This document shows positions 1,323-32,257 of a DNA stretch of 63,367 nucleotides, piece by piece (the first letter of the stretch is position 1; every line of letters starts with the position of its first letter). Under the pieces are notes generated by a model. It did no database searches, was not told where the DNA came from, and saw only the letters and a list, made by a program, of their open reading frames with translations. The DNA is from an uncultured Candidatus Saccharibacteria bacterium. Lineage in GTDB: Bacteria; Patescibacteriota; Saccharimonadia; Saccharimonadales; Saccharimonadaceae. The DNA is taken from contig CAYXCA010000001.1 in NCBI GenBank assembly GCA_964463545.1, positions 1 through 63,367 on the forward strand, written 5' to 3'. Made by a program: the position numbers and the translations under genes.

Positions 1323-1613
1323 ATTAATGAACCTCCTTTTTCTGCGCTGCTCGCGCTATTTTTATTTTGCGCAACAGGGTTATTACGCAAATGAGTCGCT
1401 CCTACACGAAGTAACTGATTTGCGTAATAACAGCAGAGAGGCTCAATATTATAGCCTATAGACTTTTAAGATACTAATGGGTGTCTGGTATCGCGAGTGC
1501 GATACCAGTATTTTTAGGGTAAAAATACTCCCTATGTTTCATATGTTATCATGGAGTTTGACTTTTGTCAACACTATTTCATAAAATTATGAAACTTAGT
1601 TTCAGACTCCACT

Positions 1614-1835
1614 CTATATGTCTAATACAGTACTAAGGCAGCGGAGGGGGATACCGATATAACGATTGCTACCTGCAGAGGGGCTAACAGTAGTACTAAA
1701 ACCCAACCAATGGGCTACTGCGGTAGTTGAACTTGCATGTGATGAAGAATAGTTACCGCCAAGTCCAGCACCGCCAAAAGTACTACTAGCAGTTCTATTC
1801 ATCACGAAGCCCCCGCTGCGCACGAAGTGGTACAA
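1614..1835 (-). other. Silent cassette C: C-terminal variable segment of a FISUMP-like protein
   Basis: Reads FVRSG...GNYSSS...VSPSAGSNRYIGIPLRCLSTVLDI*; no RBS or N-terminal domain; shares DNA anchors with the cassettes at 1930 and 32042. Confidence 0.7.
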
Positions 1836-1929
1836 TTTTTCATTTTTGTACTACTTTGGTAATGGATTTAACAGGGGGGGGTAGAAGCAAAGTCGTACTG
1901 GTACAAATTTGATTTTTTGTACCAGTAGC

Positions 1930-2163
1930 GTGCGCAGCGGAAACATGAACTTACCTGGTGTTAGCGGTGCTACTTTTAGGAATGCTAGTATTAACGGCTA
2001 TGACTGGTCATCGCGCATGTCATCTACTCGTCACGATGGTGCCACGATCCCTAGCGCCCATAACCTCGACTTCTATGAATCTGTAGTTCATCCATCAGTT
2101 GGCCCAGGTGAGCGTTATCGCGGTTTTCCCCTCCGCTGCCTTAGTACTGTATTAGACATATAG
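1930..2163 (+). other. Silent cassette A: C-terminal variable segment of a FISUMP-like protein
   Basis: Reads VRSG...GYDWSSR...AHNLDF...RYRGFPLRCLSTVLDI*; about 77% nt identical to 32042-32257 by hand alignment. Confidence 0.75.
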
Positions 2164-2699
2164 AGTGCATCATACTCGTAAATTTCAGCGTTTTGGAAGT
2201 TGGGAATATCTTGTGGCAGAGTTTTGGTCAAGATAGATGCAAGACGTTTCATTACGCCACTAGACGTGACAACAAGAATTTTGGCATTCTGAGGGTGAGA
2301 TTTTGATAAATCTAGAAGAAACGCCGTAGCACGGGCGTGAAACTCGCGAATTGGCTCCACTTCAAAAGCGCCCGAGTTAAGTTTTATGTCAAGAAAGTCA
2401 ATTTTATTATCGAATAGTTCATACATTGGGCGACCCTGAAATTGGCCAACGTTGCGTTCCTTGAGGGCATCAGAATAGATAATTGGGGAGTTCGGCGCTA
2501 CAATTTGAGCGGTTTTGGCGGCACGTTGAAGGGGAGAGGAATAGACAGCGTCAAATTCTAAACCTAGTTCTGTAATTTTGTCGCGGAGAGTTTTGGCTTG
2601 TTTGACACCATTAGCGTTGAGCGGAATATCGGCCCAACCCATAAGAGTCCCTTTTGCGTTCCAATCGGTTTCACCATGGCGGACGAGATAAAGTTTCAT
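2115..2699 (-). CDS. Histidine phosphatase family protein
   Basis: LVRHGETDWN motif, YSSPLQRAAKTA and LKERNVG; its last ~17 codons lie within cassette A and the inverted repeat. Confidence 0.9.
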   Translation of the reverse strand: MKLYLVRHGETDWNAKGTLMGWADIPLNANGVKQAKTLRDKITELGLEFDAVYSSPLQRAAKTAQIVAPNSPIIYSDALKERNVGQFQGRPMYELFDNKIDFLDIKLNSGAFEVEPIREFHARATAFLLDLSKSHPQNAKILVVTSSGVMKRLASILTKTLPQDIPNFQNAEIYEYDALYMSNTVLRQRRGKPR

Positions 2700-2707
2700 A
2701 AGAACCC

Positions 2708-3280
2708 TTAAACTATAATATCACCTTCAGAATTATCACCAATGGCGCGAAAACGATTGTTCCATGGCTTAATAGGCGAGCCATCAAGGCTACATGAATA
2801 TATTAGATAGCCTTGTTTCTTATCTGGGGTATCCTCAGCAGTATATTCCTCACGCAGAGGCATAAACTTATCGTACAAAGACACAGCCGGACGACCAGGA
2901 AAGTTCGTAGTATCAATACGAAAGTACTTATACTTCTTAAGCCGACGACAATACTCAATAGTGTCCTGCAAAACCTGTTGGCCAAAATGATGACGACGAA
3001 ACTCAGGTAAAATCGCAAACCAATCCATCCAAATTGATTCCTCCTGATCATAACCAGCCTCGTCTATGTCAAAAGTAAAGACGCCAGTCGCCCCAATTAA
3101 GGCATCTTCATAATATATCAACCAAGAAACATTACTGGCGTCATCCGGGAAAAGTGGTTTAGCAAGGTAGTCTTCATCCGCATCTTCGTTGGGCCAGATA
3201 TAATGTTGAATATCTAGTGCGAGTTGAATATTATCAGCACTAACTTTTTTATAAACTAATTCTCCAGTGTAGCTCTGCAT
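2708..3280 (-). CDS. GNAT family N-acetyltransferase
   Basis: WFAILPEFRRHHFGQQVL (motif A) and AVSLYDK. Confidence 0.8.
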   Translation of the reverse strand: MQSYTGELVYKKVSADNIQLALDIQHYIWPNEDADEDYLAKPLFPDDASNVSWLIYYEDALIGATGVFTFDIDEAGYDQEESIWMDWFAILPEFRRHHFGQQVLQDTIEYCRRLKKYKYFRIDTTNFPGRPAVSLYDKFMPLREEYTAEDTPDKKQGYLIYSCSLDGSPIKPWNNRFRAIGDNSEGDIIV

Positions 3281-3282
3281 GT

Positions 3283-3936
3283 TTAGGCTTTTTTGATAAC
3301 TTTATGATTACCATTAACGATATAAACATCGCCGTCGTTTAGAATGATCGGTTCGGCATTAATTTTGGCAACCTGCTCTTGGTAGAACTTGGTGATTGCT
3401 TTACGCTCGGGGCGATTAGCGTGCGGGACGACATATTCGTCGATCAAACCTAAGCCATCAACGACAGATTCTATACCATAATAAGCACCGACTTCTTCTA
3501 CTTTCAAATCGTCGCGTTCATAAACCTCGATATCTCTTGATGCCACCATGGCACCAGCACTGTGGCCAGCGTAAACAGTGATATCTTCCTCAAGGCGTTG
3601 GCGCAAAATACTATCCATTCCACTGACTATGAGCGCGGTGGCCAAGAGAAAAACGTTTCCACCCATAGAGTAAATTAAACCTGGGTTATAATCTGTAACG
3701 AATTCTCTGAGTTCATCTGGATCTTTAGGGAAATATTCGCGTAAATCGAGTTCTTGAGCCTGAAAACTAGCCTGCTGCAGAATGTTTAGTTTTTCGTTAA
3801 CACGCTCGGCACGGGCCTCAGGTGCCTTATAGTCACGCGCATTAGTAATAAGCAGAGTTTTGCGGTTTTCGCCAACCAGTTCGCGCAAATCGGCGGCAAA
3901 GTTGCCTAAATCTTGGCTAGAGAGAAAGAGTTTCAT
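3283..3936 (-). CDS. Peptidase S51 (peptidase E-like)
   Basis: MGGNVFLL, YAGHSAGA nucleophile elbow, GLGLIDEYVVPH. Confidence 0.85.
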   Translation of the reverse strand: MKLFLSSQDLGNFAADLRELVGENRKTLLITNARDYKAPEARAERVNEKLNILQQASFQAQELDLREYFPKDPDELREFVTDYNPGLIYSMGGNVFLLATALIVSGMDSILRQRLEEDITVYAGHSAGAMVASRDIEVYERDDLKVEEVGAYYGIESVVDGLGLIDEYVVPHANRPERKAITKFYQEQVAKINAEPIILNDGDVYIVNGNHKVIKKA

Positions 3937-3940
3937 TATC

Positions 3941-6412
3941 TTATTTTCCTTTCACTAATGCTTTAAGTTTTTCGTGGACGCCGGCGGAATCTTTGGCGAT
4001 GAGCGCCAGACGCGCATCAATGTCGGTATGAGCAATTTTGAGCGTGCGGGCGAGAACTGGATTATCGGCCATTTGATCGAAGAAAGCGTAGAATTTCTTA
4101 GCTTCATCAGGCGTGCGGATGGCACTCGCCGTACAACGCGGATAATCTTCGACTGACTTTTCACCAGTGAGTTTTTCGATATAACCCCAGTGCGTGACCA
4201 GCCAATCTAGAGCACGGTCGCGTGTACGGAAATTACGCACCAAATGAACAAAGAGAAAAAGATGATCTTGCGAGCGCACAATCTTGGGCTGTTCAAGCAA
4301 GGCAAGCAAACGATCCAAATTTTGCGGCCGTTTAGCAACGTCGGCGAGCGTATATAGTATATCATCCTTAATTTCAGGGTCGGCTTCGGTCGGATAGCGC
4401 TGAAGCCAATCATCAAACACTTGATCTTCGTCAAAGTAGAGTTTGGCCGTTAAAATCGCAGTACGTAGTTCGGGGTTAATTTGCGTAAAATCTTCCTGAT
4501 ACATCTTGGCTAAATGGCGCAAAACTGGTTCATATTCGCAATAATAGGCGATTCCGAGCAAAATTCGACGTTTTGTGGTTGAATCTGTATCATGTAATAC
4601 AGAAAAGTCAATACTATCGAACTGGTCTTGCAGGAGTTGACGTAGATAGGCTTTGTAATCATCTGCGGCCGGGGTTTCGGGCGGACAGAAAAGTTTGAGA
4701 TCAGAAATCAACATTAGTATAATATTCCAAACTGCGGGCGAAGGTTCATGAATGAACTTAGGCAAAAGATCGAACAAAGATGCCGAAGCGACATCGGGAG
4801 TTTTAGCAAGCAACTCACGATCAATCAGCAGGCGCAGTTTTTGCTCGCTCGATAGTTGGTCATACTCGGCAATCTTGGCCTGAAAATCTGTATCATTGAG
4901 GTTGAGCAAATAGTGACCCGACATATCGTCGGTAATTTCTGGCAAAGGCCAAGTAGTATCGTCGGTCTGGCCAGTAATAAGAAAACGATGTTGCCCCCAG
5001 TCATTCCCCTGCCGCTGCAAAACCGGATAGCCCGGCTGAGTGATCCAGGCATGCATAAAATCTTTAATATCAAAATCAGCGTATGGCTGGAGCGAAGCCC
5101 ACAAATCGTCACCCACAGTATTGCAATATTTATAATGGTCGAAATAATCACGCAGGCCTTGGTCAAATTTCTCTTCATCCATCAGCCGGATAAGCATAAA
5201 AATCAAGTGTGCGCCTTTGGCATAGACAATGGCACTGTCGAACAAAGTCGCGATTTCAGCAGGACTATGCACGGCTTGTTGCACCGCCTGCACGCCCGGA
5301 AGACAATCGCGCTGGAACGCCGCAAGACAATAACCAGTGAAGAAATCTTGCCAGATATTAAAATCGGGATAGAGTGCATCCGTGGCAAAATACTCGATAA
5401 CGCTTGCAAAAGATTCGTTAAGCCAAAGGTCGTCCCACCACTGCATGGTAACGAGATCGCCAAACCATTGGTGCGAAAGTTCATGTGTGACGGTGAGGGC
5501 AATACTTTGTTTGGTTTCTAGGCTAGCGGTTTTGTCGGCGAGCATCATGGATTCGCGATAAGTGACTAAGCCCCAGTTTTCCATGGCGCCAGCCTCAAAA
5601 TCGGGCAGCGCGACTTGATCAAGTTTAGGCAAGGGATACTTCTCTTGAAACTTCTCATCATAATATTCGAGTGCACGGGCGGCAGTATCATTAGCAAATA
5701 ACAATGATTCGATCGGCTGATTAAGTGCACAATATGAACTAACTTTGACGCCGTTTTTATTCACCGTGGAAACACTTTGTAAAGGTCCGGCCACCCAGGC
5801 AAGCAGATAGGTAGACATACGTGGAGTGGTTTCAAACTCAAAACTACCGCTGGTTTGCTGGATAACTGGTGTATTGGCTAGCACTACGTCGCAAGACGGA
5901 TCATAATCTGGCAGAATAATTCGAAGGTCAAAAGTAGCCTTGGCGGCTGGTTCATCAACGCAAGGAAAGGCTTCACGCGCATAGTGCGATTCAAATTGCG
6001 TGGCCACTAAACGTTGCTCCTTGCCATTGAAGTCATAGGTGGAAAGATAACAACCCTGCATGTTATGGCTAAGCGCACCGCTAAAATTGATTTTGAGAGT
6101 AAGATGATTGTTGTCCTGACATTCATCCAGAAGAGCACGCATTTCATCTGTAACAGGAATTATGATAGCGCCATCCTCGTATGTGTAATCACAAGCCATG
6201 TAACTATATTCAGCCGAGAGATCGTCGTAATCCATCCACTGCGGGCGCCATTCGATTTTTTCAATTTCGAGATTAACGGCATGGAGTTTTATTCTATCAC
6301 CATGCAAAGTTCCATAAATTTCTACTTTGCCTTTGAACCGCTCGGTGTCGCGCCAGAGGTATTCTTCAAGATTGTAATGATTAGGGGTAAAATAGTCGAG
6401 AAATCTTTCCAT
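3941..6412 (-). CDS. pepN: M1 family aminopeptidase N
   Basis: ATQFESHYAREAFPCVDEP, GAMENWG, HELSH-x18-E zinc motif; start moved to ATG 6412 (MERF), just downstream of TGTTATAAT. Confidence 0.92.
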   Translation of the reverse strand: MERFLDYFTPNHYNLEEYLWRDTERFKGKVEIYGTLHGDRIKLHAVNLEIEKIEWRPQWMDYDDLSAEYSYMACDYTYEDGAIIIPVTDEMRALLDECQDNNHLTLKINFSGALSHNMQGCYLSTYDFNGKEQRLVATQFESHYAREAFPCVDEPAAKATFDLRIILPDYDPSCDVVLANTPVIQQTSGSFEFETTPRMSTYLLAWVAGPLQSVSTVNKNGVKVSSYCALNQPIESLLFANDTAARALEYYDEKFQEKYPLPKLDQVALPDFEAGAMENWGLVTYRESMMLADKTASLETKQSIALTVTHELSHQWFGDLVTMQWWDDLWLNESFASVIEYFATDALYPDFNIWQDFFTGYCLAAFQRDCLPGVQAVQQAVHSPAEIATLFDSAIVYAKGAHLIFMLIRLMDEEKFDQGLRDYFDHYKYCNTVGDDLWASLQPYADFDIKDFMHAWITQPGYPVLQRQGNDWGQHRFLITGQTDDTTWPLPEITDDMSGHYLLNLNDTDFQAKIAEYDQLSSEQKLRLLIDRELLAKTPDVASASLFDLLPKFIHEPSPAVWNIILMLISDLKLFCPPETPAADDYKAYLRQLLQDQFDSIDFSVLHDTDSTTKRRILLGIAYYCEYEPVLRHLAKMYQEDFTQINPELRTAILTAKLYFDEDQVFDDWLQRYPTEADPEIKDDILYTLADVAKRPQNLDRLLALLEQPKIVRSQDHLFLFVHLVRNFRTRDRALDWLVTHWGYIEKLTGEKSVEDYPRCTASAIRTPDEAKKFYAFFDQMADNPVLARTLKIAHTDIDARLALIAKDSAGVHEKLKALVKGK

Positions 6413-6493
6413 ATAATGATTATAACACACGGAAAACTAGGGCTCTAGGAGCCATTACTTTCATTGTAGCATACCATAAGCATTTTGTCAATA

Positions 6494-8098: not shown

Positions 8099-8135
8099 TG
8101 TTTATTATCTTGCCCACTTTATGCTTATGGATATA

Positions 8136-9485: not shown

Positions 9486-9601
9486 AATTCCTCCATTTTT
9501 ATAGTTAGATTATAGCAATTTTTGACTTTTTTGGCTAATTTTGGCGTTTTTCTATTGACTTTTTTGCCCATCTGTGGTATAATGGAATTATAAGAGTGTA
9601 A

Positions 9602-10147: not shown

Positions 10148-10208
10148 ATATCATTGCTTGATTATGCGGTAAGACGAGTGACGTTTGATTTTGTGATATA
10201 ATTATAGA

Positions 10209-10285
10209 GTACCCGTAGCTCAGCGGATTAGAGCGTCTGTCTTCGGAACAGAAGGTCGCAGGTTCGAACCCTGTCGGGTATACCA
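10209..10285 (+). tRNA. tRNA-Arg (anticodon TCG)
   Basis: Cloverleaf GTACCCG...CGGGTAT-A-CCA; anticodon arm TCTGT-CT-TCG-GA-ACAGA; GGTTCGAACC T arm. Confidence 0.95.
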
Positions 10286-10291
10286 TGAAAT

Positions 10292-11821: not shown

Positions 11822-11832
11822 ACATTTCTATT

Positions 11833-14799: not shown

Positions 14800-16555
14800 A
14801 TTCAGTTACACGATTATATTACACAACTCTCAAACAAGCACATTACGAACATTAGAAGAGAACCAAGTTCAGTTACACGATTATATTACACAACTCTCAA
14901 ACACACACATCTTTTATGATAACCCTATCACCGTTCAGTTACACGATTATATTACACAACTCTCAAACTCCTGGGTTATTTCTGTGATTCCTCCGATTGT
15001 TCAGTTACACGATTATATTACACAACTCTCAAACAGTAAGTGTAGCCATTGCCGTCATTGATAGGTTCAGTTACACGATTATATTACACAACTCTCAAAC
15101 TCGGCCCCTTTTTTTGGTCATAAGCAAAGGTGTTCAGTTACACGATTATATTACACAACTCTCAAACAGAAAGCGGCAAATTTAATAAACTAAGTTTGTT
15201 CAGTTACACGATTATATTACACAACTCTCAGACTAGTGTCGCATTGAATGCCATTGTTGTGGCGTTCAGTTACACGATTATATTACACAACTCTCAAACC
15301 ACGCATCTTACCTTGATGGCTGACGCCGTGTTCAGTTACACGATTATATTACACAACTCTCAAACCGCCCCTTACAATAATTTTACTACAGCCCCGTTCA
15401 GTTACACGATTATATTACACAACTCTCAAACATACTATGCTAGAGATTACAAACTTAAATGGTTCAGTTACACGATTATATTACACAACTCTCAAACACG
15501 CTGGCGGTAAAAGAGTCTATTTTTTCAGTTCAGTTACACGATTATATTACACAACTCTCAAACCGCCCCTACAATAATTTTACTACAGCCCCTGTTCAGT
15601 TACACGATTATATTACACAACTCTCAAACACACTTACTTGACCTTGATGGCTGACGCCGGTTCAGTTACACGATTATATTACACAACTCTCAAACACTAC
15701 ACCCCGCTGGCCGTTGAGCAATCAAGTTCAGTTACACGATTATATTACACAACTCTCAAACCAAGGTGGCACGAATATCTTGAGACCACCAGTTCAGTTA
15801 CACGATTATATTACACAACTCTCAAACTACGAAGGCCATTGATTTGCGCTCTCGCGAGTTCAGTTACACGATTATATTACACAACTCTCAAACCAGAGCC
15901 GCAATCTCCCATATACTACTAAAGTTCAGTTACACGATTATATTACACAACTCTCAAACACGATATAAACGAACTTTTATCATATCTGGGTTCAGTTACA
16001 CGATTATATTACACAACTCTCAAACTCCCCGGTGCAAAAAGCACAATATGGGATCGTTCAGTTACACGATTATATTACACAACTCTCAAACACAGGGGTA
16101 GACTAAAGCTAATTTTTTGAAGTTCAGTTACACGATTATATTACACAACTCTCAAACGAAACGCACGCCCCCGCCGAACTTGCCGAAGTTCAGTTACACG
16201 ATTATATTACACAACTCTCAAACCATTTTAACGACCGTCCTTCCAACCCTAGCGGTTCAGTTACACGATTATATTACACAACTCTCAAACATCGTGGTGC
16301 GGCAGTATGGATGGAGTGGTGGTTCAGTTACACGATTATATTACACAACTCTCAAACAAGACATTAAGGGCGGAAATCCGCCGAAAGGTTCAGTTACACG
16401 ATTATATTACACAACTCTCAAACGGTGGGGCTTGAAATTACACGGGAAGTATAGTTCAGTTACACGATTATATTACACAACTCTCAAACGACAAAGTAAT
16501 CATGAATACATTCACGATTGTTCAGTTACACGATTATATTACACAACTCTCAAAC
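14800..16555 (-). CRISPR. Type II-A CRISPR array: 27 repeats (36 bp), 26 spacers (30-31 bp)
   Basis: Plus-strand repeat GTTCAGTTACACGATTATATTACACAACTCTCAAAC. Terminal repeat at 14800 has G>A and the repeat at 15198 has one variant base. Leader lies on the csn2 side; orientation is supported by the tracrRNA anti-repeat. Confidence 0.98.
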
Positions 16556-18503: not shown

Positions 18504-21500
18504 CTATTTTTTATCCTGTTTGCTGGTTTTAGGCTGAACGGTTTTTAAGTCTATGACTTCTTCATATAAACCAGTAGGAGATTGGTTAACGAGATATAGC
18601 CTGTCATAATTAAAGAGTTTATCATTGCTCATTCTTATCCGTCCCACACTATCTCCGCAACCAATTGCATTCAACTTGGCATTTTGAGCCTTGCAGGCGA
18701 ATATGAAGAAAAACTGACCAAGTGTTAGACACTGTTGCTTTAAATCTAATTCTAAGAACTTACTCCTACTCTGTGTTATTTTTTCAACTCCACTACCCAG
18801 TTCCGGATATTTAGAATATACTTTGAGTTTTTTACAAAACATATCGTAGAGCCGCAAGTTCCGCTCCTCATCCACTTCGTCGTTTTTCGTGTCAACTTCA
18901 TATTTATTCTTTGAGAGTTTGTCTTTAGCACAGACGTTATAAATTCTCCTCAAATAACTATTGAAGTCTGATGGAAACTTCGCCTGGACAGCATGAAGAT
19001 ACCCATTTTTCACATCAGAATCTTTGTTCGAAATAGAAAGCAATAATTCATCTGCTTTTATTAGTGACTTGATTTTTATTATTGGCAAAATAACTTTTGC
19101 ACTATCATAATTTTCTGTCACATATTTTTTAATATTATCTTTTGCAATAATCGGGACTTGGATAATTCGGCGTTGTGTATTGCCTTTTTTATCCTTACAT
19201 TCAATAAGCGCAAAGTGTGCACCTTTCAACGAGTTATATCCGCCATATTTTTTCGGATCGAGGCGCTTTTGCTGTTTGATTTTTAGCAAACCATCAGAAT
19301 TTTTGCTTTTACCAACGAGTTGAAGGTCAGAAATTTCTCTACTTTCGATATAGTTCATCCTCGTCCAAATCACATCATTACGCTTCATGGCACTGCTGAT
19401 AGTCTTGATACTATCAGCATAGTTCCAGCCTTTGACCTCTGGGTAAATAGTTTCTTCGCCATTGGCTTTGGTATACTTTTGAGAACCGCGGAAGATTCTT
19501 TCTGGCCGAATGGAGTACTCTTTACCTTCGCGGCGCTTAATCCATTCATATGGATTGTCGGTAAAAGTTTCATTCATAACATTACCGACCACGATGTTAA
19601 GGTAAGCATCTTTAGCATGATGTAAATCATTTATATCACGAACTTTAATAAATTCGTATCTGCCCTGCTCATAAACATTGCCGTCCCGGTCTTTTTTGTC
19701 GCCACCCATTAAGTGGCGGAATTCTGAAACCTGTCCGGCCTTTACCATGACAATTTTTGTGTCTGGATAAGCGCGCTTTAGCAAATCACGAATTGCTTTG
19801 ACCGACTGACTGGTTTCGACCAACTGCCTCGCAATAAAACTCCCCAGTTCATCATTCGTAAGTGGTGTAGCACGAATTAATCTTTCGTACTTCTCTTTCG
19901 TAATAAGTCCAGTTCGACACCATGCGGCCCACGTTCCATGCATCTTGTTGCGAATAGAATCACTGATTGGGTAAGTATTTGTCTTCTCACGATTTAGATT
20001 CGCTTTAATTAGCACAAGATTACGAGTGATGCTATCGTCCTTAGTCCTAGAGCGCGGATAAATATGATCGATGTCGTAGAGTTGAGAGTTATTTAGTTCC
20101 TCAATGTCAATTGGTTCACCAGAATAAGCACACTTTCCCATCTGCGAGAAATAGAGAAAAAGTTTCTTGCTTTGTAGATCGCGATCTTCGTATCCATCAA
20201 GTTCTTTCAAAATAGTCTTCGCGTCGTCAGTCTTAATGGCTTTTAACTTCATTTCTAAATCTTTTTTACGCGCTAGAGTATATTTGCCTTTAGATTTTTC
20301 ATCTTCTCCGCGCGTAACTTCTAGAAAGATTTTGGCTGGCGTATAATCAAGATTTTTAACTAACTCATTTACAATTTTGATAGTTTGCCAGACTGAGCGC
20401 TTGACTGCCGGAGAACAGTACAATTTTTCGACGTCAGGATAACTTACCTTTCTGGATGCCGGACGCTTGGCTTCATTATATTCATCAACAACTTTTCCAA
20501 AGCCAACTTCTTGCCCTAACAATTCCATTAAATTTTTATTATCTTCCCATAGCCAATCAAGAATCGTGCGATTATTAACCGTAATTCCATTTAAGAATCT
20601 TGCCGACATACGGCCCCAATCTTTGTATGAGAGTCTGCTCAGGAGATCTGCGGTTTTATCGTCGCAATCTAGTTCTTCCTGAATGTTTTTCTTGAGCATA
20701 GATTTTTCGTCGCCAAGAACCGTGATAGATTCAATAACTTGTTCAAGTTTATCTGATGGATATTTTTTCTCAAAGTTTGCTCCGAGTATGCGCGAAAAAT
20801 CTTGGTAAGTTTGATATTTTGGGAGAACCTTAATTTCATTAGTACCGCTCAACTCGTCACTAGCCGCAATAAAACTGTTTTCTTTGCACCATTTCTCTAA
20901 CTTTCTCAGTGTAATGCTGCCTTTGATCTCACCGTTTTTATAGCCACGCTCAAAGATTTCTTGTTTTAGTTTATTATCGATCCGATGTCCGTTAATTTTA
21001 AGATTATTAAGTTCGCTAAGAACCATATATTTCTGATAAATTAACGAACATTTTGGTAAAACATCTTCGCCGAAAAGATAAGTACATTCGTTAGTCATAC
21101 GACGAATAAAGTTTTTAGCACGACTATCTTTATTAACAAGTTGGTCAAAATTCCACGGATAGACCAATTCAGAAATTTCTTCATCAGCCCAAGAAAATTC
21201 ACTGCCGTTCTCATTAACAAGGTTGCCGTCATTATCGTATTTTCGTTTTACGATTGGTCCACAGTAGTACGGAATGCGAAAACTATGAATTTTCATAATT
21301 TTCTTGGCTTTAGTATTATAAGTTTCGCCTTCACCTGACACAACTTCAGCAAAACTTGGAAAATCTCGCTGCAACTTTTCGAGAATAATTTTAAGTTCAT
21401 TGGCATGAAGTTGCATAGGGATTGTGCCTTTGGCTTGGCCACGTTGCTTAGGTAATAATAATGGCGAAGTAGATTTTTCGCTAGTATCAGTACGGTCGAG

Positions 21501-22769
21501 TAGTTCGTCGACTACTGATAGAAGTTCCGGCGATGTATTTGATCTGATTTCTTCTAATAGTTTATGCAAATATTTATTAAAATCTTCCTGACCGATGTTT
21601 TTGCTAGCCCTGCGGCCGTTTTTATCTTCCGTGTAGGCCTTACCTATATATGCGTTATAACTCGGATTTTTCTCATCATAAAGTTTAACCTTAAATAACT
21701 GACGGTAAAGTTCCTGATGTGGCTTAAAGACTTTCTTCAGCCTTTGCAAGTCGTCTTCATGCTGGATGTAGTTTGCAACCATTGCGTCGGAAATCATTTT
21801 GTGGCTACCTAGCAGATTGTGCAAAATAACGTAGTCGTAAATGTTTTTCGCGGCAAAAATTAAATCCAAATTATCTGAACCGATTGCTTGCTCAATGTCA
21901 GGCAACTTATCTTCAAAAACTCCCTCACTGAAAGAATATGGGAACTTATCGTCATCCTCGAACGCAAATATCTTTTTTAAATCAACCTTTGAGCCGACAA
22001 GCAGACCGGCTAACTCAAGTTGCCCTTTCGGTGCATCTTCATCAAGAGTATCATCCTCAATATATAAAATTTCTTTGAGTTCTTTTTTCTTGTCAATTTT
22101 GCTCGCCTTTTTTGTGAGTATTGATTCTACTTCACCTGGTATATCTGCGATATTATACCCAGCGTGTTCTGCTTCTTCGCGAAATTCTTCAAAAAGTTCT
22201 TCAAAGTTAATCCCGGAACTATCAATATTGCCGTTTAGCAGAAAATGTCCACGATGCTTTAGAATGTGCTGGATAGCAAGAAAATACAGGCGAATATCAA
22301 AAGATTCGTCTTCTTTTGTATTGATTATTGCCTGACGTAAATGCCAAATCGTGGGATAATTTTTATGAAAATCTTTATCGGTAAAATTGAAATCATTAAA
22401 TAGAGTGTTCTTGGATCCCTTCTGTAATCTTTTATCTTCTTCATAATAAAAACTTTCTTTCAGGCGCTGATAGAATTCTGGATCAACTTTAGAGATTTCA
22501 TCACGAAATAGCATACGCAAGAGTTTTAGACGAGATTTCGCTCGTTCCCCGCGACGACGAGCCGAACGATGCGTGCGGCGCTCAGCGGCAGTATCGGCCT
22601 CGTCGAAAAGGCGAAAACCCCAAAGCGTTTGTTTTTTGGTTTTTGTACCTTTATCACTTTTGATACGGTGGGTGCCTTTCATCAAATTATAGTTTTCATC
22701 CGTTACCGCCCAGCCAACTGAGTTCGTACCGCAATCTAGTCCGATGTAATATGGTTGTTTATTATTCAT
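18504..22769 (-). CDS. cas9: Type II-A CRISPR nuclease Cas9 (~1421 aa)
   Basis: RuvC-I GLDCGTNSVGW, Arg-rich bridge helix, FRIPYYCGP, HNH DIDHIYPRS, RuvC-III HHAKDAYL; probable start ATG 22769 after GAGGAAG. Confidence 0.97.
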   Translation of the reverse strand: MNNKQPYYIGLDCGTNSVGWAVTDENYNLMKGTHRIKSDKGTKTKKQTLWGFRLFDEADTAAERRTHRSARRRGERAKSRLKLLRMLFRDEISKVDPEFYQRLKESFYYEEDKRLQKGSKNTLFNDFNFTDKDFHKNYPTIWHLRQAIINTKEDESFDIRLYFLAIQHILKHRGHFLLNGNIDSSGINFEELFEEFREEAEHAGYNIADIPGEVESILTKKASKIDKKKELKEILYIEDDTLDEDAPKGQLELAGLLVGSKVDLKKIFAFEDDDKFPYSFSEGVFEDKLPDIEQAIGSDNLDLIFAAKNIYDYVILHNLLGSHKMISDAMVANYIQHEDDLQRLKKVFKPHQELYRQLFKVKLYDEKNPSYNAYIGKAYTEDKNGRRASKNIGQEDFNKYLHKLLEEIRSNTSPELLSVVDELLDRTDTSEKSTSPLLLPKQRGQAKGTIPMQLHANELKIILEKLQRDFPSFAEVVSGEGETYNTKAKKIMKIHSFRIPYYCGPIVKRKYDNDGNLVNENGSEFSWADEEISELVYPWNFDQLVNKDSRAKNFIRRMTNECTYLFGEDVLPKCSLIYQKYMVLSELNNLKINGHRIDNKLKQEIFERGYKNGEIKGSITLRKLEKWCKENSFIAASDELSGTNEIKVLPKYQTYQDFSRILGANFEKKYPSDKLEQVIESITVLGDEKSMLKKNIQEELDCDDKTADLLSRLSYKDWGRMSARFLNGITVNNRTILDWLWEDNKNLMELLGQEVGFGKVVDEYNEAKRPASRKVSYPDVEKLYCSPAVKRSVWQTIKIVNELVKNLDYTPAKIFLEVTRGEDEKSKGKYTLARKKDLEMKLKAIKTDDAKTILKELDGYEDRDLQSKKLFLYFSQMGKCAYSGEPIDIEELNNSQLYDIDHIYPRSRTKDDSITRNLVLIKANLNREKTNTYPISDSIRNKMHGTWAAWCRTGLITKEKYERLIRATPLTNDELGSFIARQLVETSQSVKAIRDLLKRAYPDTKIVMVKAGQVSEFRHLMGGDKKDRDGNVYEQGRYEFIKVRDINDLHHAKDAYLNIVVGNVMNETFTDNPYEWIKRREGKEYSIRPERIFRGSQKYTKANGEETIYPEVKGWNYADSIKTISSAMKRNDVIWTRMNYIESREISDLQLVGKSKNSDGLLKIKQQKRLDPKKYGGYNSLKGAHFALIECKDKKGNTQRRIIQVPIIAKDNIKKYVTENYDSAKVILPIIKIKSLIKADELLLSISNKDSDVKNGYLHAVQAKFPSDFNSYLRRIYNVCAKDKLSKNKYEVDTKNDEVDEERNLRLYDMFCKKLKVYSKYPELGSGVEKITQSRSKFLELDLKQQCLTLGQFFFIFACKAQNAKLNAIGCGDSVGRIRMSNDKLFNYDRLYLVNQSPTGLYEEVIDLKTVQPKTSKQDKK

Positions 22770-22830
22770 AAGGCTTCCTCGCAAATAATTACTATTTACA
22801 TTATAGCACGCACATAATATAATGTAGTCA

Positions 22831-22935: not shown

Positions 22936-22986
22936 GATGTTTGGTTATGGCAGAATACTTCAAAAATCATATATAATATACTATAT

Positions 22987-25720: not shown

Positions 25721-26315
25721 TTTGCCGAATTGCATCAAATAAATATGGCTTGTAGACAGCAAATTCTAACGGCTCGCCATCCAGAATACAAGAAAAACAG
25801 GTGGAACTAGCGAGTTCGATAATCATGAAGAGCAGTACTTTGGGGTTCTTGATATGGATGCCGCTATGTTCTGCAGCGCGAATTAAACTTTGCAAAATAT
25901 CTATATTATCATTGGTGAAAATTTCGTTGACTTTGTGGTTAAAAAGGCCATACGACAAGTTCTTGGCAATCAACTTTAGAGCATCTTGATTTTGCGAAAG
26001 GATGTCTGTAATATAATCGACAATGAAGATAATTTGGTCTTCAAAATTGACAACTCCAGTCTGACGCAACGTTGCGATCGCCATTTGAAAAAGTTCATTA
26101 GATTTGCGCGTAATAAGTCGCTCTTTTAGGTCATCTTTGTCGCGAAAATAATTATAAAAAGTGCCCTTAGCAATAAAGGCTTGGTCTGTAATGTCTTGAA
26201 TCGATACTGCATCATAACCACGCTGAAGAAAAAGTTGGTAGGCAGCCTCTAAAAGACGATCATAGGTATCAATTTGTTTGCTTTGCCGCCGGCTCATTTG
26301 GCTTTCATTACTCAT
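25698..26315 (-). CDS. TetR/AcrR family regulator
   Basis: LFLQRGYDAVSIQDITDQAFIAKGTFYNYF; divergent from the MMPL operon. Confidence 0.92.
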   Translation of the reverse strand: MSNESQMSRRQSKQIDTYDRLLEAAYQLFLQRGYDAVSIQDITDQAFIAKGTFYNYFRDKDDLKERLITRKSNELFQMAIATLRQTGVVNFEDQIIFIVDYITDILSQNQDALKLIAKNLSYGLFNHKVNEIFTNDNIDILQSLIRAAEHSGIHIKNPKVLLFMIIELASSTCFSCILDGEPLEFAVYKPYLFDAIRQIIRSQTL

Positions 26316-26365
26316 GAGATTATTATACTACATTCTGCAATAAAATAAAGCATAGTTTGTGACAG

Positions 26366-26451
26366 AAAAGTGACTATTGGTCATTTTTATTATTGACAAG
26401 AGATTTTCTCTGATGTAGAATGGTTACTGAAAATTGACTATTGGTCATTTT
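26366..26451 (+). promoter_or_regulatory. sigma70 promoter flanked by two TetR-type operators
   Basis: AAAA(G/T)TGACTATTGGTCATTTT at 26366-26387 and 26430-26451, bracketing TTGACA-17-TAGAAT (26393-26421). Confidence 0.85.
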
Positions 26452-26506
26452 TTGCTAGGAGATTTGGCCAATGGTTAAAGAACAATTATAAAGTTAAAGG
26501 AGAAAA

Positions 26507-28585
26507 ATGAAGAAAATCAGCGAATTCATTTGTAAACATCGCTGGCTAATTGTGATTCTTTCGGGATTATTACTGATTCCAGCGTTGTTTGGCTATATTG
26601 CCACCAAAGTAAACTATGATTTGCTCGTTTATCTGCCGTCAGACATTGAAACCTTGAAAGGGCAAGAAATTTTGACGGATGAATTTGGCATGGGAGCATT
26701 CTCGGTGGCAGTGGTAGAAAATATGCCACAGAAAGAATTACTCCAACTGGAAGAAAAAATCGGGCAAGTGGAGGGAGTAAATCAAGTCCTGACTATGGCA
26801 GATTTGACTGGTACAGCAGTACCAGTAGATTTCTTACCGACGACGGTGCGCGAAAAAATGACACATGATGGCACCCAACTCATGCTGATTACCTTCCATG
26901 ATGGTACGAGTGATGAGAAAACTTTGAACGCGGTGGAAGAAATTCGCAACCTGGCCGGTGAGAGTTGCTTGGTGGGTGGAATGAGCGCAATGGTTTTGGA
27001 TACAAAAATGCTATTTAATAGCGAAACTGTATTGTATGTAAGTATTGCTGTGGGACTATCACTCTTGGTTTTATTGGTTTGTCTAGATTCCTTTGTGGTA
27101 CCATTTCTACTTATCGGTAGTATTGGCGTGGCGCTACTGTTCAATATGGGAACAAATGTTTTCTTGGGTGAGATTTCCTACATTACCAAAGCAATTAGTG
27201 CTGTGCTGCAACTGGGCGTTACGATGGACTTCTCAATTTTCTTGTATCACAAATATGAAGCAGCCAAGAAGACTGAAAAAGACCGTTTGAAGGCGATGAC
27301 GAGTGCGATTCAGGCAACGGCATCAAGTGTGGTGGGAAGTGCACTAACAACCTTTGCTGGTTTCTTGGCACTTTGCACGATGAGCCTGACTTTGGGTACT
27401 GACATCGGCATCGTGATGGCGAAGGGCGTGGTGCTAGGTGTGATTTGCGCAATTACAACTTTCCCGGCCCTATTGCTAGTGTGTGATAAATGGGTAGAAA
27501 AAACCAAGCACCGAGAACTCTTGCCGAAATTTACCGGCGTGAAGAATTTTATCATCAAATACAACAAAGTAATTTTAGCCGTGTTCGCGGTGACATTGGT
27601 ACCAGCATATATCCTGAATACTAAGACAGAAGTTTATTACAAACTAGATTCTTCAATTCCGGCGGACTATGGCTATACCAAAGCAATGACGGCACTGCGC
27701 GAAGATTTTGGGATGGAATCGCAGATGGTAGTATTAGTGCGCGATGAAACTAACACAGCCAAAGTTAATGCGATGACAGGAGAGATTGCAAAAGTAGACG
27801 GAATTGACGCCGTGCTCAGCCCAACTATGTTGGCAAACTATGGTTTGTCGCAAGATTTATTGAGTGAAAAGTTGCGGTCGTTCTTTGAAACTGATGATTA
27901 TACAATGATGTTGATTCTGTCAGATTACAGCATTGCGAGCGATGAACTAAATGCTCAAATTGCCAAAGTGAATGAGATTGTAGATAGTTACGACGAAGGC
28001 GCGATTGTGGCAGGCGAGGGGCCACTGATGAAAGATTTAGTAGAAATCTCCGACCGTGATTTTACAAATGTGAATGTGGTTTCGATTGCGGTAATTTTTG
28101 TAATTATGGCGCTCGTGCTGAAGTCAATTTCTTTGCCGGTAATATTGATGGCAGCGATTGAATTTGCGATTTTCTTAAACCTCGGCTGCGCTTTTGTAAC
28201 TGGAACGGAGATTCCCTTTGTGGCGTCGATTGTGATTGGTACGATTCAACTTGGAGCAACGATTGACTATGCGATTTTGCTAACTACCAAATATCTTGAA
28301 GAACGGCAACACGGTGCAGACAAAAAGCAGGCCGTACGGACGGCGCTGGGGAGTTCAATTCAATCAATCTTTGTCAGTGCGATGTGCTTCTTTGGGGCAA
28401 CAATCGGTGTGGGTGTGATTTCACAAATTGATATGATCGGATCACTATGTACGTTGATTGCGCGCGGAGCAGTGATTAGTATGGTGGTAGTAGTGACGGT
28501 GGTACCAGCCTTGCTGATTACTTTTGACCCAGTGATTCGACGCACGACTTTAGGATTTAACAAACTACCAAAGCGGGTAGACTAG
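26507..28585 (+). CDS. MMPL/RND family transporter
   Basis: Duplicated membrane architecture; LQLGVTMDFSIFL and IQLGATIDYAILL. Confidence 0.9.
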   Translation: MKKISEFICKHRWLIVILSGLLLIPALFGYIATKVNYDLLVYLPSDIETLKGQEILTDEFGMGAFSVAVVENMPQKELLQLEEKIGQVEGVNQVLTMADLTGTAVPVDFLPTTVREKMTHDGTQLMLITFHDGTSDEKTLNAVEEIRNLAGESCLVGGMSAMVLDTKMLFNSETVLYVSIAVGLSLLVLLVCLDSFVVPFLLIGSIGVALLFNMGTNVFLGEISYITKAISAVLQLGVTMDFSIFLYHKYEAAKKTEKDRLKAMTSAIQATASSVVGSALTTFAGFLALCTMSLTLGTDIGIVMAKGVVLGVICAITTFPALLLVCDKWVEKTKHRELLPKFTGVKNFIIKYNKVILAVFAVTLVPAYILNTKTEVYYKLDSSIPADYGYTKAMTALREDFGMESQMVVLVRDETNTAKVNAMTGEIAKVDGIDAVLSPTMLANYGLSQDLLSEKLRSFFETDDYTMMLILSDYSIASDELNAQIAKVNEIVDSYDEGAIVAGEGPLMKDLVEISDRDFTNVNVVSIAVIFVIMALVLKSISLPVILMAAIEFAIFLNLGCAFVTGTEIPFVASIVIGTIQLGATIDYAILLTTKYLEERQHGADKKQAVRTALGSSIQSIFVSAMCFFGATIGVGVISQIDMIGSLCTLIARGAVISMVVVVTVVPALLITFDPVIRRTTLGFNKLPKRVD

Positions 28586-28596
28586 AAAGGAATTTT

Positions 28597-30096
28597 ATGA
28601 AAAAGATTACAAGAAGTTTAACTTATCTCGCAGTAGTGGGCGCGGTGGCGGTGGTGCCAAGTTTGTCTACGCTCTCAGCAGCAGCCTTAAGTCAGGACGA
28701 AACCGTGTATGCCAAATTACAAAATGATGGGAGCGCAAAATATATTTCTGTAACCAAACATTTGATCAATGATTTGAAAGAAAATGAATTGTTTGACGAA
28801 AGTATTTTGAATGAGTTGGAGAATCTGAACGGTTTTGAAAACTTCACACAAGATAACGGCACAATAAAATGGAATGCGAATGGTAAGGATATTTATTATC
28901 GTGGAACGACCGAAAAAGAATTACCAGTACAACTCCAGGCTACATATTATTTGAATGGCGAAGAAAAACCACTGAGTGAGATTTTGAGTAAGAGCGGGCA
29001 AATTGAAATTCGTTTGAAATATACTAACCTCTCTAAGGTGGGCAATATGTATACGCCATTCGTGGTAGCCGTGGCGACAACTTTGGACGAAACCAAAGTT
29101 TCCAATGTGAAAGTGACTAACGGACGCGCAGTAAACAATGGTCGCACAATTGCGATTGCTGGCGTGGCGGCGCCGGGATTATATGAAAGCTTGGGGATCG
29201 AAGATTTACAGGGTAGCGATACGGTGACGATTAGTTATGAAACGGAAAAGTTTGAGCTAGGCGATATATATTCTATTGTGACGCCAAAGTTGCTTGATAG
29301 TGCCGACTTAAAAACTTTCACCGAGTTGGATGATTTGTATGCCAGCAGTAACAAGTTAGCTGTGAGTAGCAAACAATTGGTGGAGGGCACAAACGCGCTC
29401 AAAAGCGGAATTGCCGAGCTGAAAAATGGTATTTTGCAGGCCCAGAAAAAGATACAAAATGCGGAAACTAAAATTGACGCCGCAACTTTGACCAAGATTA
29501 AAACCGCAGCCAGCATCGCAGCCGAAAAACAAGTAGAAGCACAGCGTGAAGTGATTGTTGCCAGTATTAAAACCCAAGTTGAAGGTAACGAAATTTTGAT
29601 GAACGCGTTGAAATTACAAGCGGCAGAAACGTGTAGCGCGCAGATTGGCGGTGCGACTTGCCCCGATGCAAATGTAAAAGCCGTGCAGAACCAGTTGACG
29701 CAAGGCGTGGAAGCCAGCATGGTGGAAAGCTCAATGACTTTAGCCAAGACTACTGCCAAACAAACGGCAGCAGCAACTGCGGAGAATGTGGCCGTGCAGG
29801 TAGCAGAAACCGTACAAAAGACCATGCTTCCGGCAGTATCCGGAGCGTTGGATACGATTCTAGGTGGAGTGGATAAATTAGCCCAGGGAGCAAATGAACT
29901 CAATAATGGTATGGTGCAGTTTGATCGCGAAGGCATCCAAACCTTGAATAATTTCGTAAACGGCAAGGTTAAAGTCACGGCCAACAAAGTGGAACAATTG
30001 GTGCGCTTGGCTGAACAATATGATAACTTTGCTGGCATGGCTAAAGGCGCAACTGGTACGACGAAGTTTGTTCTGATGGTTGAGGGACAAAAGTAA
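28597..30096 (+). CDS. Secreted YhgE/Pip-like coiled-coil partner of the MMPL transporter
   Basis: Signal peptide, DETVY, GKDIYYRG..KELPV, and LxxGxxxL repeats. Confidence 0.75.
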   Translation: MKKITRSLTYLAVVGAVAVVPSLSTLSAAALSQDETVYAKLQNDGSAKYISVTKHLINDLKENELFDESILNELENLNGFENFTQDNGTIKWNANGKDIYYRGTTEKELPVQLQATYYLNGEEKPLSEILSKSGQIEIRLKYTNLSKVGNMYTPFVVAVATTLDETKVSNVKVTNGRAVNNGRTIAIAGVAAPGLYESLGIEDLQGSDTVTISYETEKFELGDIYSIVTPKLLDSADLKTFTELDDLYASSNKLAVSSKQLVEGTNALKSGIAELKNGILQAQKKIQNAETKIDAATLTKIKTAASIAAEKQVEAQREVIVASIKTQVEGNEILMNALKLQAAETCSAQIGGATCPDANVKAVQNQLTQGVEASMVESSMTLAKTTAKQTAAATAENVAVQVAETVQKTMLPAVSGALDTILGGVDKLAQGANELNNGMVQFDREGIQTLNNFVNGKVKVTANKVEQLVRLAEQYDNFAGMAKGATGTTKFVLMVEGQK

Positions 30097-30103
30097 AAAC
30101 ACG

Positions 30104-30132
30104 ATAACTCCCGCCAAAAACGGGAGTTATTT
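30104..30132. terminator. Bidirectional intrinsic terminator
   Basis: ATAACTCCCG-CCAAAAA-CGGGAGTTAT-TTTT between convergent genes. Confidence 0.8.
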
Positions 30133-31782
30133 TTATACCAAATCAGAATTAAGATAGTAATAATATTCCAAAAGTTCGCGCGAATAATTTTTGATGACAG
30201 CCAACTCAGGCTTTTTAGCATCTGACTGATGCGTAGGCACAATGAGCATCCGGGTAATGCCAACCTGCTCGACAAAAGCCGGGTTGTGGCTCACCATAAT
30301 AATCGTACCAGTATAATCTTTGAGGTTTTCGCCAATGATTTTTTGAGTTTCGGGGTCAAAATGGTTAGTAGGCTCATCCAGAATCACCAGGTTAGCACGT
30401 TGTAGCAAAATCTTACACAAAGCGACGCGGGCTTTTTCACCAGGCGAAAGCACAGCCACTTTTTTATAAACATCGTCACCATAGAAGAGGAAATTAGAAA
30501 GCATGCTGCGCAGTTCAGTGTCGGTAAAATCATACGATTGGACATTCTCCAAAATCGTGCGACGCTCATCGAGGATTTCTAGCTCTTGCGCGTAGTAAGC
30601 AATCGTCGTATTGTGGCCAAAGATAATCGAGCCGTCAGTGGGAGTAAGTTCGCCCACAATGAGCTTAAGTAGGGTTGACTTGCCAACACCATTTTCGCCA
30701 ACGATAAGAAACTTCTCACCGCGCGTGAGCGAGAAAGACAAACGGTCATAGAGCTGTGGCCCACCCGGATAGGCAAAGGAAAGATTTTGTACTTCAAGCG
30801 GAGTCTTGCTTCCCTCTTTGGCGGGTGTAATACGCATGGCCACACGAGCGTATTCTTGTTCACGTTCACCGAGCTCAGCTAACTTTTTGGCGAGAACTTT
30901 TTCGCGTTGATGTCCCATACCGATCAAAGCCGTATTGGAACGCTTAGCGGCACGCGCCCGCGCGACAAATTCGCTCAGGCGTTTAATTTCGCGCTCCTGC
31001 TCAGTGATGCGCGCATCCTCAGCGGCTTTTTCTTCAGCATACTGACGGCGGAAGTCACTATAATTACCACGATAAACTTTCATCTTGTGGGTAGTTTTAT
31101 TCACAAAAAGGATTTTGTTGACGACGGTATTAAGAAAATCAATGTCGTGGGAAATCACCAAAACTGTACCTTTGTAGCTACGCAGATAATTCGCCACAAA
31201 TTGCTTGGTTTCGACATCGAGATGATTAGTAGGTTCGTCCAACAAAAGCAAGCCTGCGTTTTCAAATAGCACCCGCGCAAAAGCAACTTTGGATTTTTGC
31301 CCGCCGGAGAGTTCTTTCATCTTCTGGTCAACTAAATCAGAGAGGTGCATTTTGTCCAAAATTTTGAGCAGCTCATAATCAAAATTTGCCAAATCATACG
31401 AATCAATCAAATCTTGAAGTTCAGTAATGCGATCCAGGATAGCATTACTGTCAGGATATTTAGCAAGTTTTTCATATTCAGAGTTAAGTTGTTCTTGAAG
31501 TTCGTCTACTGGGCGACCAGAAGCAACATATTCCCAGACCGTGATATCGTCATGCTCGGGCGGAATAATAATCTCTTGTGGTAAATAGCCAAGACGTTGA
31601 CTACCAAGTTCAATTTTGCCGTCGTCCAGATTTTGCTCACCCAAAATAATGCGAAATAGTGTGGTCTTTCCGGCACCGTTCACCCCAACGATACCAACTT
31701 TGTCGCCGGTTTCGAGATTAAAATTACAGTCATCATAAATGACTTTAGTACCGTACGCTAACTGAAGATGGGTTGCTTTCAT
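30133..31782 (-). CDS. ABC-F family ATPase
   Basis: Two ABC domains (GVNGAGKTT/LSGGQK/LLDEPTNHLD and GENGVGKST/LSPGEK/ILDEPTNH); no membrane segments. Confidence 0.93.
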   Translation of the reverse strand: MKATHLQLAYGTKVIYDDCNFNLETGDKVGIVGVNGAGKTTLFRIILGEQNLDDGKIELGSQRLGYLPQEIIIPPEHDDITVWEYVASGRPVDELQEQLNSEYEKLAKYPDSNAILDRITELQDLIDSYDLANFDYELLKILDKMHLSDLVDQKMKELSGGQKSKVAFARVLFENAGLLLLDEPTNHLDVETKQFVANYLRSYKGTVLVISHDIDFLNTVVNKILFVNKTTHKMKVYRGNYSDFRRQYAEEKAAEDARITEQEREIKRLSEFVARARAAKRSNTALIGMGHQREKVLAKKLAELGEREQEYARVAMRITPAKEGSKTPLEVQNLSFAYPGGPQLYDRLSFSLTRGEKFLIVGENGVGKSTLLKLIVGELTPTDGSIIFGHNTTIAYYAQELEILDERRTILENVQSYDFTDTELRSMLSNFLFYGDDVYKKVAVLSPGEKARVALCKILLQRANLVILDEPTNHFDPETQKIIGENLKDYTGTIIMVSHNPAFVEQVGITRMLIVPTHQSDAKKPELAVIKNYSRELLEYYYYLNSDLV

Positions 31783-32041
31783 TCCATAATTATAGCATGA
31801 TATTTAATATAATAGATATGTGAAGTTAATTTCATGGGACCCAAAGGCAGCCTGAGTTCACTCCTCCGCTCGCTGGCGGTTCTCTCACTAAAGATCGTGA
31901 AGTTCCCCTCTATAATTTCAAAGAAAATGTTGAGGTTTGACGGTTTTGAGCCACGGCTCAAAATATGAGAAGTGAACTTCTTTACCTAACGCACTTTTGG
32001 ACGTTTTTCTGACGGGGTTTCTGCAAGGGTGATAAGCCTTC

Positions 32042-32257
32042 GTGCGCAGCGGGAACGTAAACCTACCTGGTGTTAGTGGTGCTACTTTCAGGAACGCTGG
32101 CATCAACGGCAACGGTTGGTCGTCGCGCGCCTCATCTACTCGCGTCGATGGCGCTGCCATCCCTAGCGGTTACAACCTCGAATTTAATGATTCTGTAGTC
32201 AACCCGTCGAATGGCCCGAACGACCGCTGGCACGGTTTCCCCCTCCGCTGCCTTAGT
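32042..32257 (+). repeat. Silent cassette B: AAC-rich, DGR-template-like copy of the FISUMP tip
   Basis: 72 codons collinear with 1930-2145; same CGTGCGCAGCGG and CCCCTCCGCTGCCTTAGT anchors; many AAC/AAT codons. Confidence 0.75.

What the first reader, a model, noticed from the sequence alone, without database searches (positions are those of the whole stretch)
1610..32257. Family of silent FISUMP-tip cassettes with fixed DNA anchors: candidate surface-protein diversification system
Seen: three start-less reading frames (1614-1835 minus, 1930-2163 plus, 32042-32257 plus) all begin with CGTGCGCAGCGG (VRSG) and end with CCCCTCCGCTGCCTTAGT (PLRCLS), with variable sequence between. They correspond to the YFV...WS...RC tail of the full-length FISUMP protein at 40028-41635. 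Cassettes A and B align without gaps over 72 codons with 50 mismatches by hand count: 17 codons differ synonymously, 18 non-synonymously, and there are no stops. Known: silent-cassette gene conversion (Neisseria pilS/pilE, Borrelia vlsE), shufflons and DGRs all swap or mutate C-terminal ligand-binding tips. Inference: these are donor cassettes for an expressed adhesin-like gene elsewhere. The FISUMP gene here lacks the anchors, so it is a paralogue and not the direct acceptor.
Basis: partly seen in the sequence, partly recalled or inferred. Interest (0 to 1): 0.9.

Follow-up and report, generated by a model that had tools for sequence, protein, structure and literature searches.

The report
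Multi-template mutator with silent cassette library
This tiny bacterial genome holds 118 start-less spare tips for one protein gene, six scattered template repeats and one reverse transcriptase; the enzyme likely writes mutated tips from the templates and the spare tips are likely copied into the gene, joining two ways of varying a predicted surface protein.

Summary
The three cassettes are real but are not all the same thing. Window 32041-32257 is the template repeat of a diversity-generating retroelement (DGR); 1614-1824 and 1929-2163 are two of 118 silent tips in this 0.96-Mb genome, likely a Saccharibacterium. One DGR-type reverse transcriptase with an Avd-fold partner lies on another contig. 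Six dispersed templates each carry a covarying 5' leader and a shared 3' tail. The best template/tip pair differs at 11 of 11 sites, all template adenines. One full-length FISUMP-like gene carries the anchor, and its contig breaks inside the tip. Related full-length copies have 99% identical scaffolds but about 50% identical tips; one tip is 99% identical to silent cassettes and does not fit any template found. 117 of 118 cassettes are in frame without stops, and identical tips sit between unrelated flanks. Best reading: a multi-template DGR plus gene conversion from a genome-wide cassette library. The direction of copying is inferred, not observed. The scan reported silent DGR cassettes before in two other genomes; the dispersed templates and the match between expressed tips and cassettes are tested here. 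Not found in nine literature searches.

The parts
1614..1824 (-). Silent cassette A: start-less tip VRSG...PLRCLSTVLDI*, ending in the target gene's own 3' tail
   Evidence: (c2)
1825..1928 (.). Spacer of the divergent cassette pair with two TGGTACAA...TTGTACCA-type palindromes; 23 of 23 such palindromes in the genome lie within 200 bp of a cassette 5' end
1929..2163 (+). Silent cassette B: same length class as the window template but diverged from it without adenine bias (10/39 A, 40/169 other; p=0.47)
   Evidence: (c0)
31841..32000 (+). Conserved 5' leader of the predicted template RNA; covarying helices; no Rfam match
32041..32257 (+). DGR template repeat, one of six; 8 AAC codons; best-matching template of cassettes c57, c5, c87 and of the 5' part of the full-length gene's tip
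32258..32283 (+). Template-specific 3' tail (CCGCGG...GGTGCCGATCTTTT): terminator-like stem plus T run; CGATCTTT is complementary to AAAGATCG in the leader
40028..41635 (-). Full-length FISUMP-like paralogue without the anchors, 39% identical to the real target; not part of the exchange system

Best explanation
One full-length FISUMP-like gene, six dispersed template repeats, one DGR-type reverse transcriptase with a predicted Avd-fold partner and 118 start-less copies of the gene's last ~70 codons form a likely two-stage diversifier: the enzyme likely rewrites the tip from any template with adenine mutagenesis, and tips are likely copied by gene conversion between the gene and the silent cassettes using the fixed anchors. 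Shown by sequence: the parts, adenine-specific template/tip pairs, intact cassettes, identical tips at unrelated sites, and different tips on near-identical scaffolds. Inferred: transcription of the templates as stand-alone RNAs acting in trans, cassette-to-gene direction, RecA dependence, surface display and a ligand-binding role.
For: RT: best PDB hit is the DGR RT 8ub7, E 3.8e-22, next 5e-5. The upstream gene's C-terminal domain aligns to Avd: 4dwl Z 14.8, rmsd 1.8, 106 aligned; 8ub7_B Z 15.5. Adenine specificity: c22 vs template C19 11/41 A and 0/158 other; the ten pairs picked as closest pooled 140/397 A against 4-8% for C, G, T, covering all six templates; G088 11 A/1 other; G014 20 of 20 at A. 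Six templates share leader and tail; 11 of 23 leader pairs change on both sides, 0/500 shuffles reach this and slid controls give 2-4. The leader model finds 12 copies in G093 (outside the training set) and single copies directly behind the RT in G014 and G016. Cassettes: 117 of 118 in frame, none of these with a stop, against 81 of 110 distinct expected under neutral substitution; all 22 extra profile hits are contig-end fragments, not decayed relics. Copying: 12 of 14 identical or 1-nt-different pairs have unrelated upstream flanks, and 4 of 5 pairs with identical 100-nt upstream flanks hold background-level tips. c7 is a mosaic of c5 and c11; the target's tip shares 55 nt, including derived changes, with silent c94. 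Homology arms at satellite sites match the own-species target 98-100%. Expression site: 13 full-length copies in one cluster, scaffold identity median 99.5%, 13 distinct tips at median 53%. P0002 (scaffold 99.1% to the G088 target) has a tip 99% identical to G088 silent v12 and v30 but only 72% compatible with the best of 10 templates; P0016 is 100% template-compatible.
Against: No RNA or raw DNA reads were laid, so neither expression nor an event in progress was seen. Direction cannot be read from identity alone: a tip shared by gene and cassette could have been deposited from the gene, or written by a template missing from the G088 assembly (757 of about 800 kb fetched). P0015 ends in a template tail, so some full-length tips may be assembly chimeras. 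Only 17 of 118 cassettes have an adenine-only tract of 36 nt or more to a present template, so most cannot be traced to these six. The target's 3' end is not assembled in G000, G088 or G093. The fold of the tip was not established. Identity of arms at contig breaks is partly by construction.
Confidence: 0.72

Rival explanations
1. Multi-template DGR, but the cassettes are a one-way deposit: copies of past expressed tips inserted around the genome and never read back.
For: Cassettes carry the target's 3' tail, which no template has, so they derive from target DNA. Lack of stops could reflect selection while expressed. Sites turn over: 9 of 28 syntenic sites are empty in G088.
Against: No interior decayed relics and only 1 frameshift in 118. 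Content is exchanged between fixed flanks. Full-length tips P0002 and P0018 match cassettes (99%, 81%) better than any template allows (72%, 75%).
Confidence: 0.13
2. The cassettes are remote DGR targets rewritten in place by retrohoming, without DNA-to-DNA copying.
For: All keep the GC-rich 3' anchor; several show strong adenine bias to a template (c30, c57, c60, c67). Sequential homing from different templates could by itself make mosaics such as c94.
Against: Independent random mutagenesis cannot give identical tips at separate loci (14 pairs). Only 2 of 118 share more than 37 nt of the target's 3' flank that holds the hairpin. Start-less copies would gain nothing unless read back.
Confidence: 0.08
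3. Assembly or binning artefact: tips of many strains assembled into one bin.
For: 54 contigs; 40 of 108 contig ends carry cassette or flank motifs; the C4 join is probably a collapsed repeat; P0015 looks chimeric.
Against: Contamination 0.42%. Cassettes lie inside long contigs between ordinary genes at 71 sites, each with its own flanks. Independent public contigs of 1.5-2 kb contain cassette-like segments at about single-copy depth (table 8). The same anatomy is present in G088.
Confidence: 0.04
4. Shufflon-type inversion system.
For: 44 of 53 adjacent copies are in opposite, divergent orientation.
Against: Copies are dispersed over 71 sites rather than next to the gene; the only tyrosine recombinase found is a XerC/D-like gene on another contig; adenine-specific templates are unexplained. 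That shufflon segments read convergently next to their gene is recalled, not from a call.
Confidence: 0.01

Closest known systems
Diversity-generating retroelements (Bordetella phage BPP-1 brt/avd/TR; cellular DGRs with remote targets such as Treponema)
   Same: DGR-type RT, Avd-fold partner, AAC-rich template, adenine-specific changes in the C-terminal tip of a target, GC-rich 3' anchor with a downstream hairpin. G014 and G016 keep the classical RT-leader-template layout.
   Different: 6-12 different templates dispersed away from one RT, each with its own leader and tail, and over 100 start-less tip copies. In passages of PMC5758913 the maxima are 8 targets and 7 non-adjacent targets, and the terms 'multiple TR', 'two TRs' and 'pseudogene' do not occur.
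Silent-cassette antigenic variation (Borrelia vlsE/vls; Neisseria pilE/pilS)
   Same: One full-length site, many start-less cassettes bounded by conserved sequence, segmental mosaics.
   Different: Per the abstract of PMC11499132, vls cassettes are contiguous arrays about 90% identical to vlsE with unidirectional recombination. Here they are dispersed over 71 sites, median 53% alike in the core, also exchanged among silent sites, and fed by an RT mutator. pilS details are recalled.
Shufflons (R64 Rci/sfx)
   Same: Interchangeable C-terminal tips in inverted pairs.
   Different: No dedicated recombinase near the gene, no clustering, divergent orientation. Family features recalled.

Membership tests
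DGR | DGR-class reverse transcriptase | tested here: met
   C4:41501-42778; RVT_1; best PDB hit DGR RT 8ub7, E 3.8e-22
DGR | Template/variable repeat pair differing at template adenines | tested here: met
   11 of 11 at A; G014 20 of 20; G088 11 of 12
DGR | Accessory Avd | tested here: met
   Predicted C-terminal domain, Z 14.8-15.5 to Avd chains; Avd-like 2gsc and 2rld rank first. No sequence-level hit. N-terminal domain not assigned.
DGR | Variable repeat at the 3' end of a protein-coding target | tested here: met
   C24:1-1515 runs into the tip; complete relatives end in ...PLRCLSTVL
DGR | C-type-lectin or Ig fold of the variable domain | tested here: inconclusive
   Single-sequence model failed, pLDDT 33; no PDB or PHROG hit; FISUMP match below cut-off
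DGR | IMH/IMH* and downstream hairpin | tested here: inconclusive
   GC-rich 3' anchor shared, tails differ between template and target, and a perfect stem follows the RT-proximal tip; function untested
DGR | Retrohoming activity through an RNA intermediate | not testable with these tools
   No RNA holder listed
Silent-cassette gene conversion (vls/pilS type) | Single expression site plus start-less intact cassettes | tested here: met
   One full-length anchor-bearing gene; 118 cassettes, 117 in frame without stops
Silent-cassette gene conversion (vls/pilS type) | Segmental sharing between cassettes and expression site | tested here: met
   55 nt shared with c94; P0002 99% to v12/v30, P0018 3' half like v35
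Silent-cassette gene conversion (vls/pilS type) | Unidirectional silent-to-expressed transfer | tested here: inconclusive
   Direction not observable; silent sites themselves also receive copies
Silent-cassette gene conversion (vls type) | Contiguous cassette array | tested here: not met
   71 dispersed sites
Shufflon | Dedicated recombinase and clustered invertible segments at the gene's 3' end | tested here: not met

The most novel reading that the evidence does not exclude
A germline-library-plus-hypermutation system in an ultra-small bacterium: a single RT serves a family of free-standing template RNA genes in trans, selected tips are stored in over 100 silent slots, and both feed one surface adhesin by templated rewriting and gene conversion. 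This would be a bacterial analogue of V-gene conversion plus somatic hypermutation, with heritable memory of past variants.
Probability: 0.6. Interest if true: 0.95.

Novelty: new variant of a known kind. Interest (0 to 1): 0.86.

Why it matters
In the classical DGR one template fixes every non-adenine position, and each round overwrites the last variant. Several templates plus a cassette library would remove both limits: different scaffold lengths, recombinants and stored past variants. A 0.96-Mb genome spends 2.6% of its DNA on this, which points to strong selection on one predicted surface protein and makes a candidate for how gut Saccharibacteria recognise hosts or evade phage or antibody. 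The portable leader-template-tail unit would be a natural trans-acting, multiplexed DGR RNA of interest for directed evolution. It also explains why these assemblies break at this gene and why adjacency-based DGR screens (PMC8144416, passage) would miss it.

Tried and rejected
Structure of the target tip: single-sequence AlphaFold failed, so no fold search was run on it; PDB and PHROG sequence searches were blank; the Atlas gave no answer. Rfam: no match to the template unit. Whole-unit folding of the window template is not better than shuffles (z -0.92); the structural case rests on leader covariation only, the 'further pair types' measure there was below the shuffles, and one G088 template without a leader was left out of that alignment (15 of 16). 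The long-range AAAGATCG/CGATCTTT pairing is invariant, so it is untested by covariation. No sigma-70-like site was found upstream of the leader on its strand. No RNA holder listed. In one search parts of the RT-proximal tip have no cover in runs X3 and X4 while the flanks are covered; a part without cover is not counted as evidence. The second RT (C17) has retron-like context and no cassette link. Serine recombinases (6 hits) were not tied to the system. Window cassette B shows no adenine bias to the window template. Paul et al. 2017 on CPR DGRs could not be read; it and supplements of the survey papers, which I did not open, may bear on novelty.

Full report
Observation. Both anchors occur three times in the window and never that often in shuffles. 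The gene at 40028-41635 lacks the anchors.

Scale. The window is contig C1 of a 961-kb, 95% complete, 0.4% contaminated assembly. It holds 122 anchor-bounded copies and two more with a changed 3' anchor. Six of these 124 share a distinct 3' tail and are AAC-rich (mean 7.2 versus 1.2 AAC codons): C1:32042 (the window's third copy), C4, C10, C19, C27, C36. The other 118 mostly end in the tail STVLDI*, have short open frames upstream, and lie at 71 sites; 44 of 53 neighbouring copies are divergent pairs. Genomes that carry complete units of the same kind are mostly titled Candidatus Saccharibacteria, so the taxon is inferred from relatives.

It is a DGR. An RT at C4:41501-42778 has the Bordetella DGR RT as best solved relative. 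The gene in front of it has a predicted C-terminal four-helix domain that aligns to Avd. The tip next to the RT differs from template C19 at 11 positions, all template adenines; cassettes with significant adenine bias exist for all six templates (the pairs were picked as closest). The same holds in G088 and G014. RT relatives occur in 19 of 24 genus genomes searched.

Templates are separate, structured units. All six carry a leader motif 138-166 nt upstream (6 of 7 genome hits). An alignment of 15 leaders from G000 and G088 gives 23 pairs, 11 with changes on both sides, above all 500 shuffles and the slid controls; relatedness can inflate the shuffle control. A model of the leader finds 6 copies here, 9 in G088 (both training genomes), 12 in G093, 8 in G070 and 6 in G045, and one directly behind the RT in G014 and G016; 14 of 80 relatives have any. 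So the classical RT-leader-template unit likely gave rise to free-standing template genes. Four of the six could be tested for synteny with G088 and all four keep a template there at 81-90% identity, whereas silent cassettes at syntenic sites are 47-72% alike and 9 of 28 testable sites are empty (intervals up to several kb, so 'occupied' is lenient).

The target. One full-length gene carries the anchor, C24:1-1515, with an N-terminal hydrophobic segment; the contig ends 75 nt into the tip. The orthologue also ends at a contig break just before the tip in G088 and G093. Synteny (gyrA followed by a C48-like gene in G014; flank followed by a C48-like gene in G088) suggests that the target really lies convergent with the RT and that the C4 join is a collapsed repeat; this is inference. 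Its tip start fits the window template at adenines only for about 50 nt and then follows the C19 type. Two satellite sites carry 140- and 87-nt arms identical to the target; the orthologous arms in G088, G093 and G070 match their own target at 98-100%. In public contigs of the same study the arm runs into a tip start with 0 (X1), 4 (X2) or 1 (X4) other letters; the arm is shared by three sites, so the locus is not resolved.

The cassettes are maintained and exchanged. 117 of 118 are in frame and none of these has a stop, against 81 of 110 expected under a neutral model. Non-adenine differences to the nearest template are 56% synonymous versus 31% expected in 9 pairs, though part of this may have arisen on the template. 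A DNA profile finds no interior relics. Fourteen pairs are identical or differ by 1 nt; 12 have unrelated upstream flanks, and 4 of 5 pairs with identical upstream flanks hold unrelated tips. Independent mutagenesis cannot give this, so DNA is copied between anchors. RecA is present; the only tyrosine recombinase found is XerC/D-like.

The expression site varies through both routes. Clusters of full-length homologues show scaffolds 99% identical with 13 of 13, 5 of 5 and 3 of 3 distinct tips of 57-69 residues (15 of 22 members of the largest cluster were listed, fragments and P0015 left out). Against G088 (55 cassettes, 10 templates in 757 kb): P0016 is fully template-compatible; P0002 is 99% identical to silent v12 and v30, whose upstream flanks share only a few bases with the target, and 72% compatible with the best template; P0018 and P0019 match cassettes at 81% and 79% versus 75% and 73% template compatibility. 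P0015 ends in a template tail and may be an assembly chimera, which is the main caveat.

Distribution. I verified start-less cassettes only in G088; some matches elsewhere are full-length paralogues.

Literature. Nine searches (listings with abstract starts) gave no description of silent cassette libraries or multiple dispersed templates for one DGR. I saw passages of PMC5758913, PMC8867640, PMC8144416 and PMC11661182 and the abstract and outline of PMC11499132; no supplements. Paul et al. 2017 was not available. Two earlier notes of this scan report DGR-linked silent cassettes in other genomes; they are unchecked AI notes and I used them as agreement only.

Verdict. A real feature and a bona fide DGR by RT, Avd fold and adenine rule, with an architecture not found in my searches: many remote templates, one target and a maintained cassette library that works like vls/pilS without being a member. 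Confidence in the two-stage mechanism 0.72; interest 0.86.

Noticed in passing
window 18504-22784 (-): Cas9 gene (REC, HNH, RuvC, PI domains) in this small genome.
   Followed up: no
L001:1333-2623 (G000:C17): Second RT, retron-like, directly behind an HTH-like gene.
   Followed up: partly
L002:2112-2660; L003:1592-2107; L004:2193-2594 and 15431-15868: Recurrent small ORFs, one with a CdiA_C Pfam hit, beside the RT, the target and elsewhere; similar ORFs lie beside the RT in several relatives.
   Followed up: no
G000:C4:44309(-) and C53:1150(+): A shared motif (CGTTGCGC...CATTCC.CTTATG) lies upstream of both arm-bearing satellite sites and nowhere else in G000; similar sequence precedes arms in relatives. 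Candidate cis-element.
   Followed up: partly
L034, L035, L036 starts; G000:C4 about 43700: A copy of the template-tail motif (CCGCGG...GTGCCGAT) lies downstream of the target's 3' flank, followed by conserved sequence facing the RT.
   Followed up: no
window 32321-32574; L007 downstream of the template: The window template is followed by two tRNA genes; the C10 template is followed by tRNA-like sequence (not scanned).
   Followed up: no
G000 divergent pairs: Spacers between divergent cassettes fall into a few recurring length and palindrome families (16-18, 103-123, 145-167, 275, 344-364 nt), suggesting duplication of two-slot modules.
   Followed up: partly
L081:10116-10561 (G088:C2): One G088 copy has the template tail but no leader and no AAC codons: possibly a template overwritten or truncated.
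   Followed up: no
window 62632-63228 (-); window 42945-44555 (+): Small serine resolvase gene; HTH fused to an EPSP-synthase/MurA-family domain.
   Followed up: no
G000:C31:3209-4603 and C19:9454-10731; G067: Two more anchor-less FISUMP-like paralogues; G067 has 32 matches to the full-length protein, a gene-family expansion rather than short cassettes.
   Followed up: no
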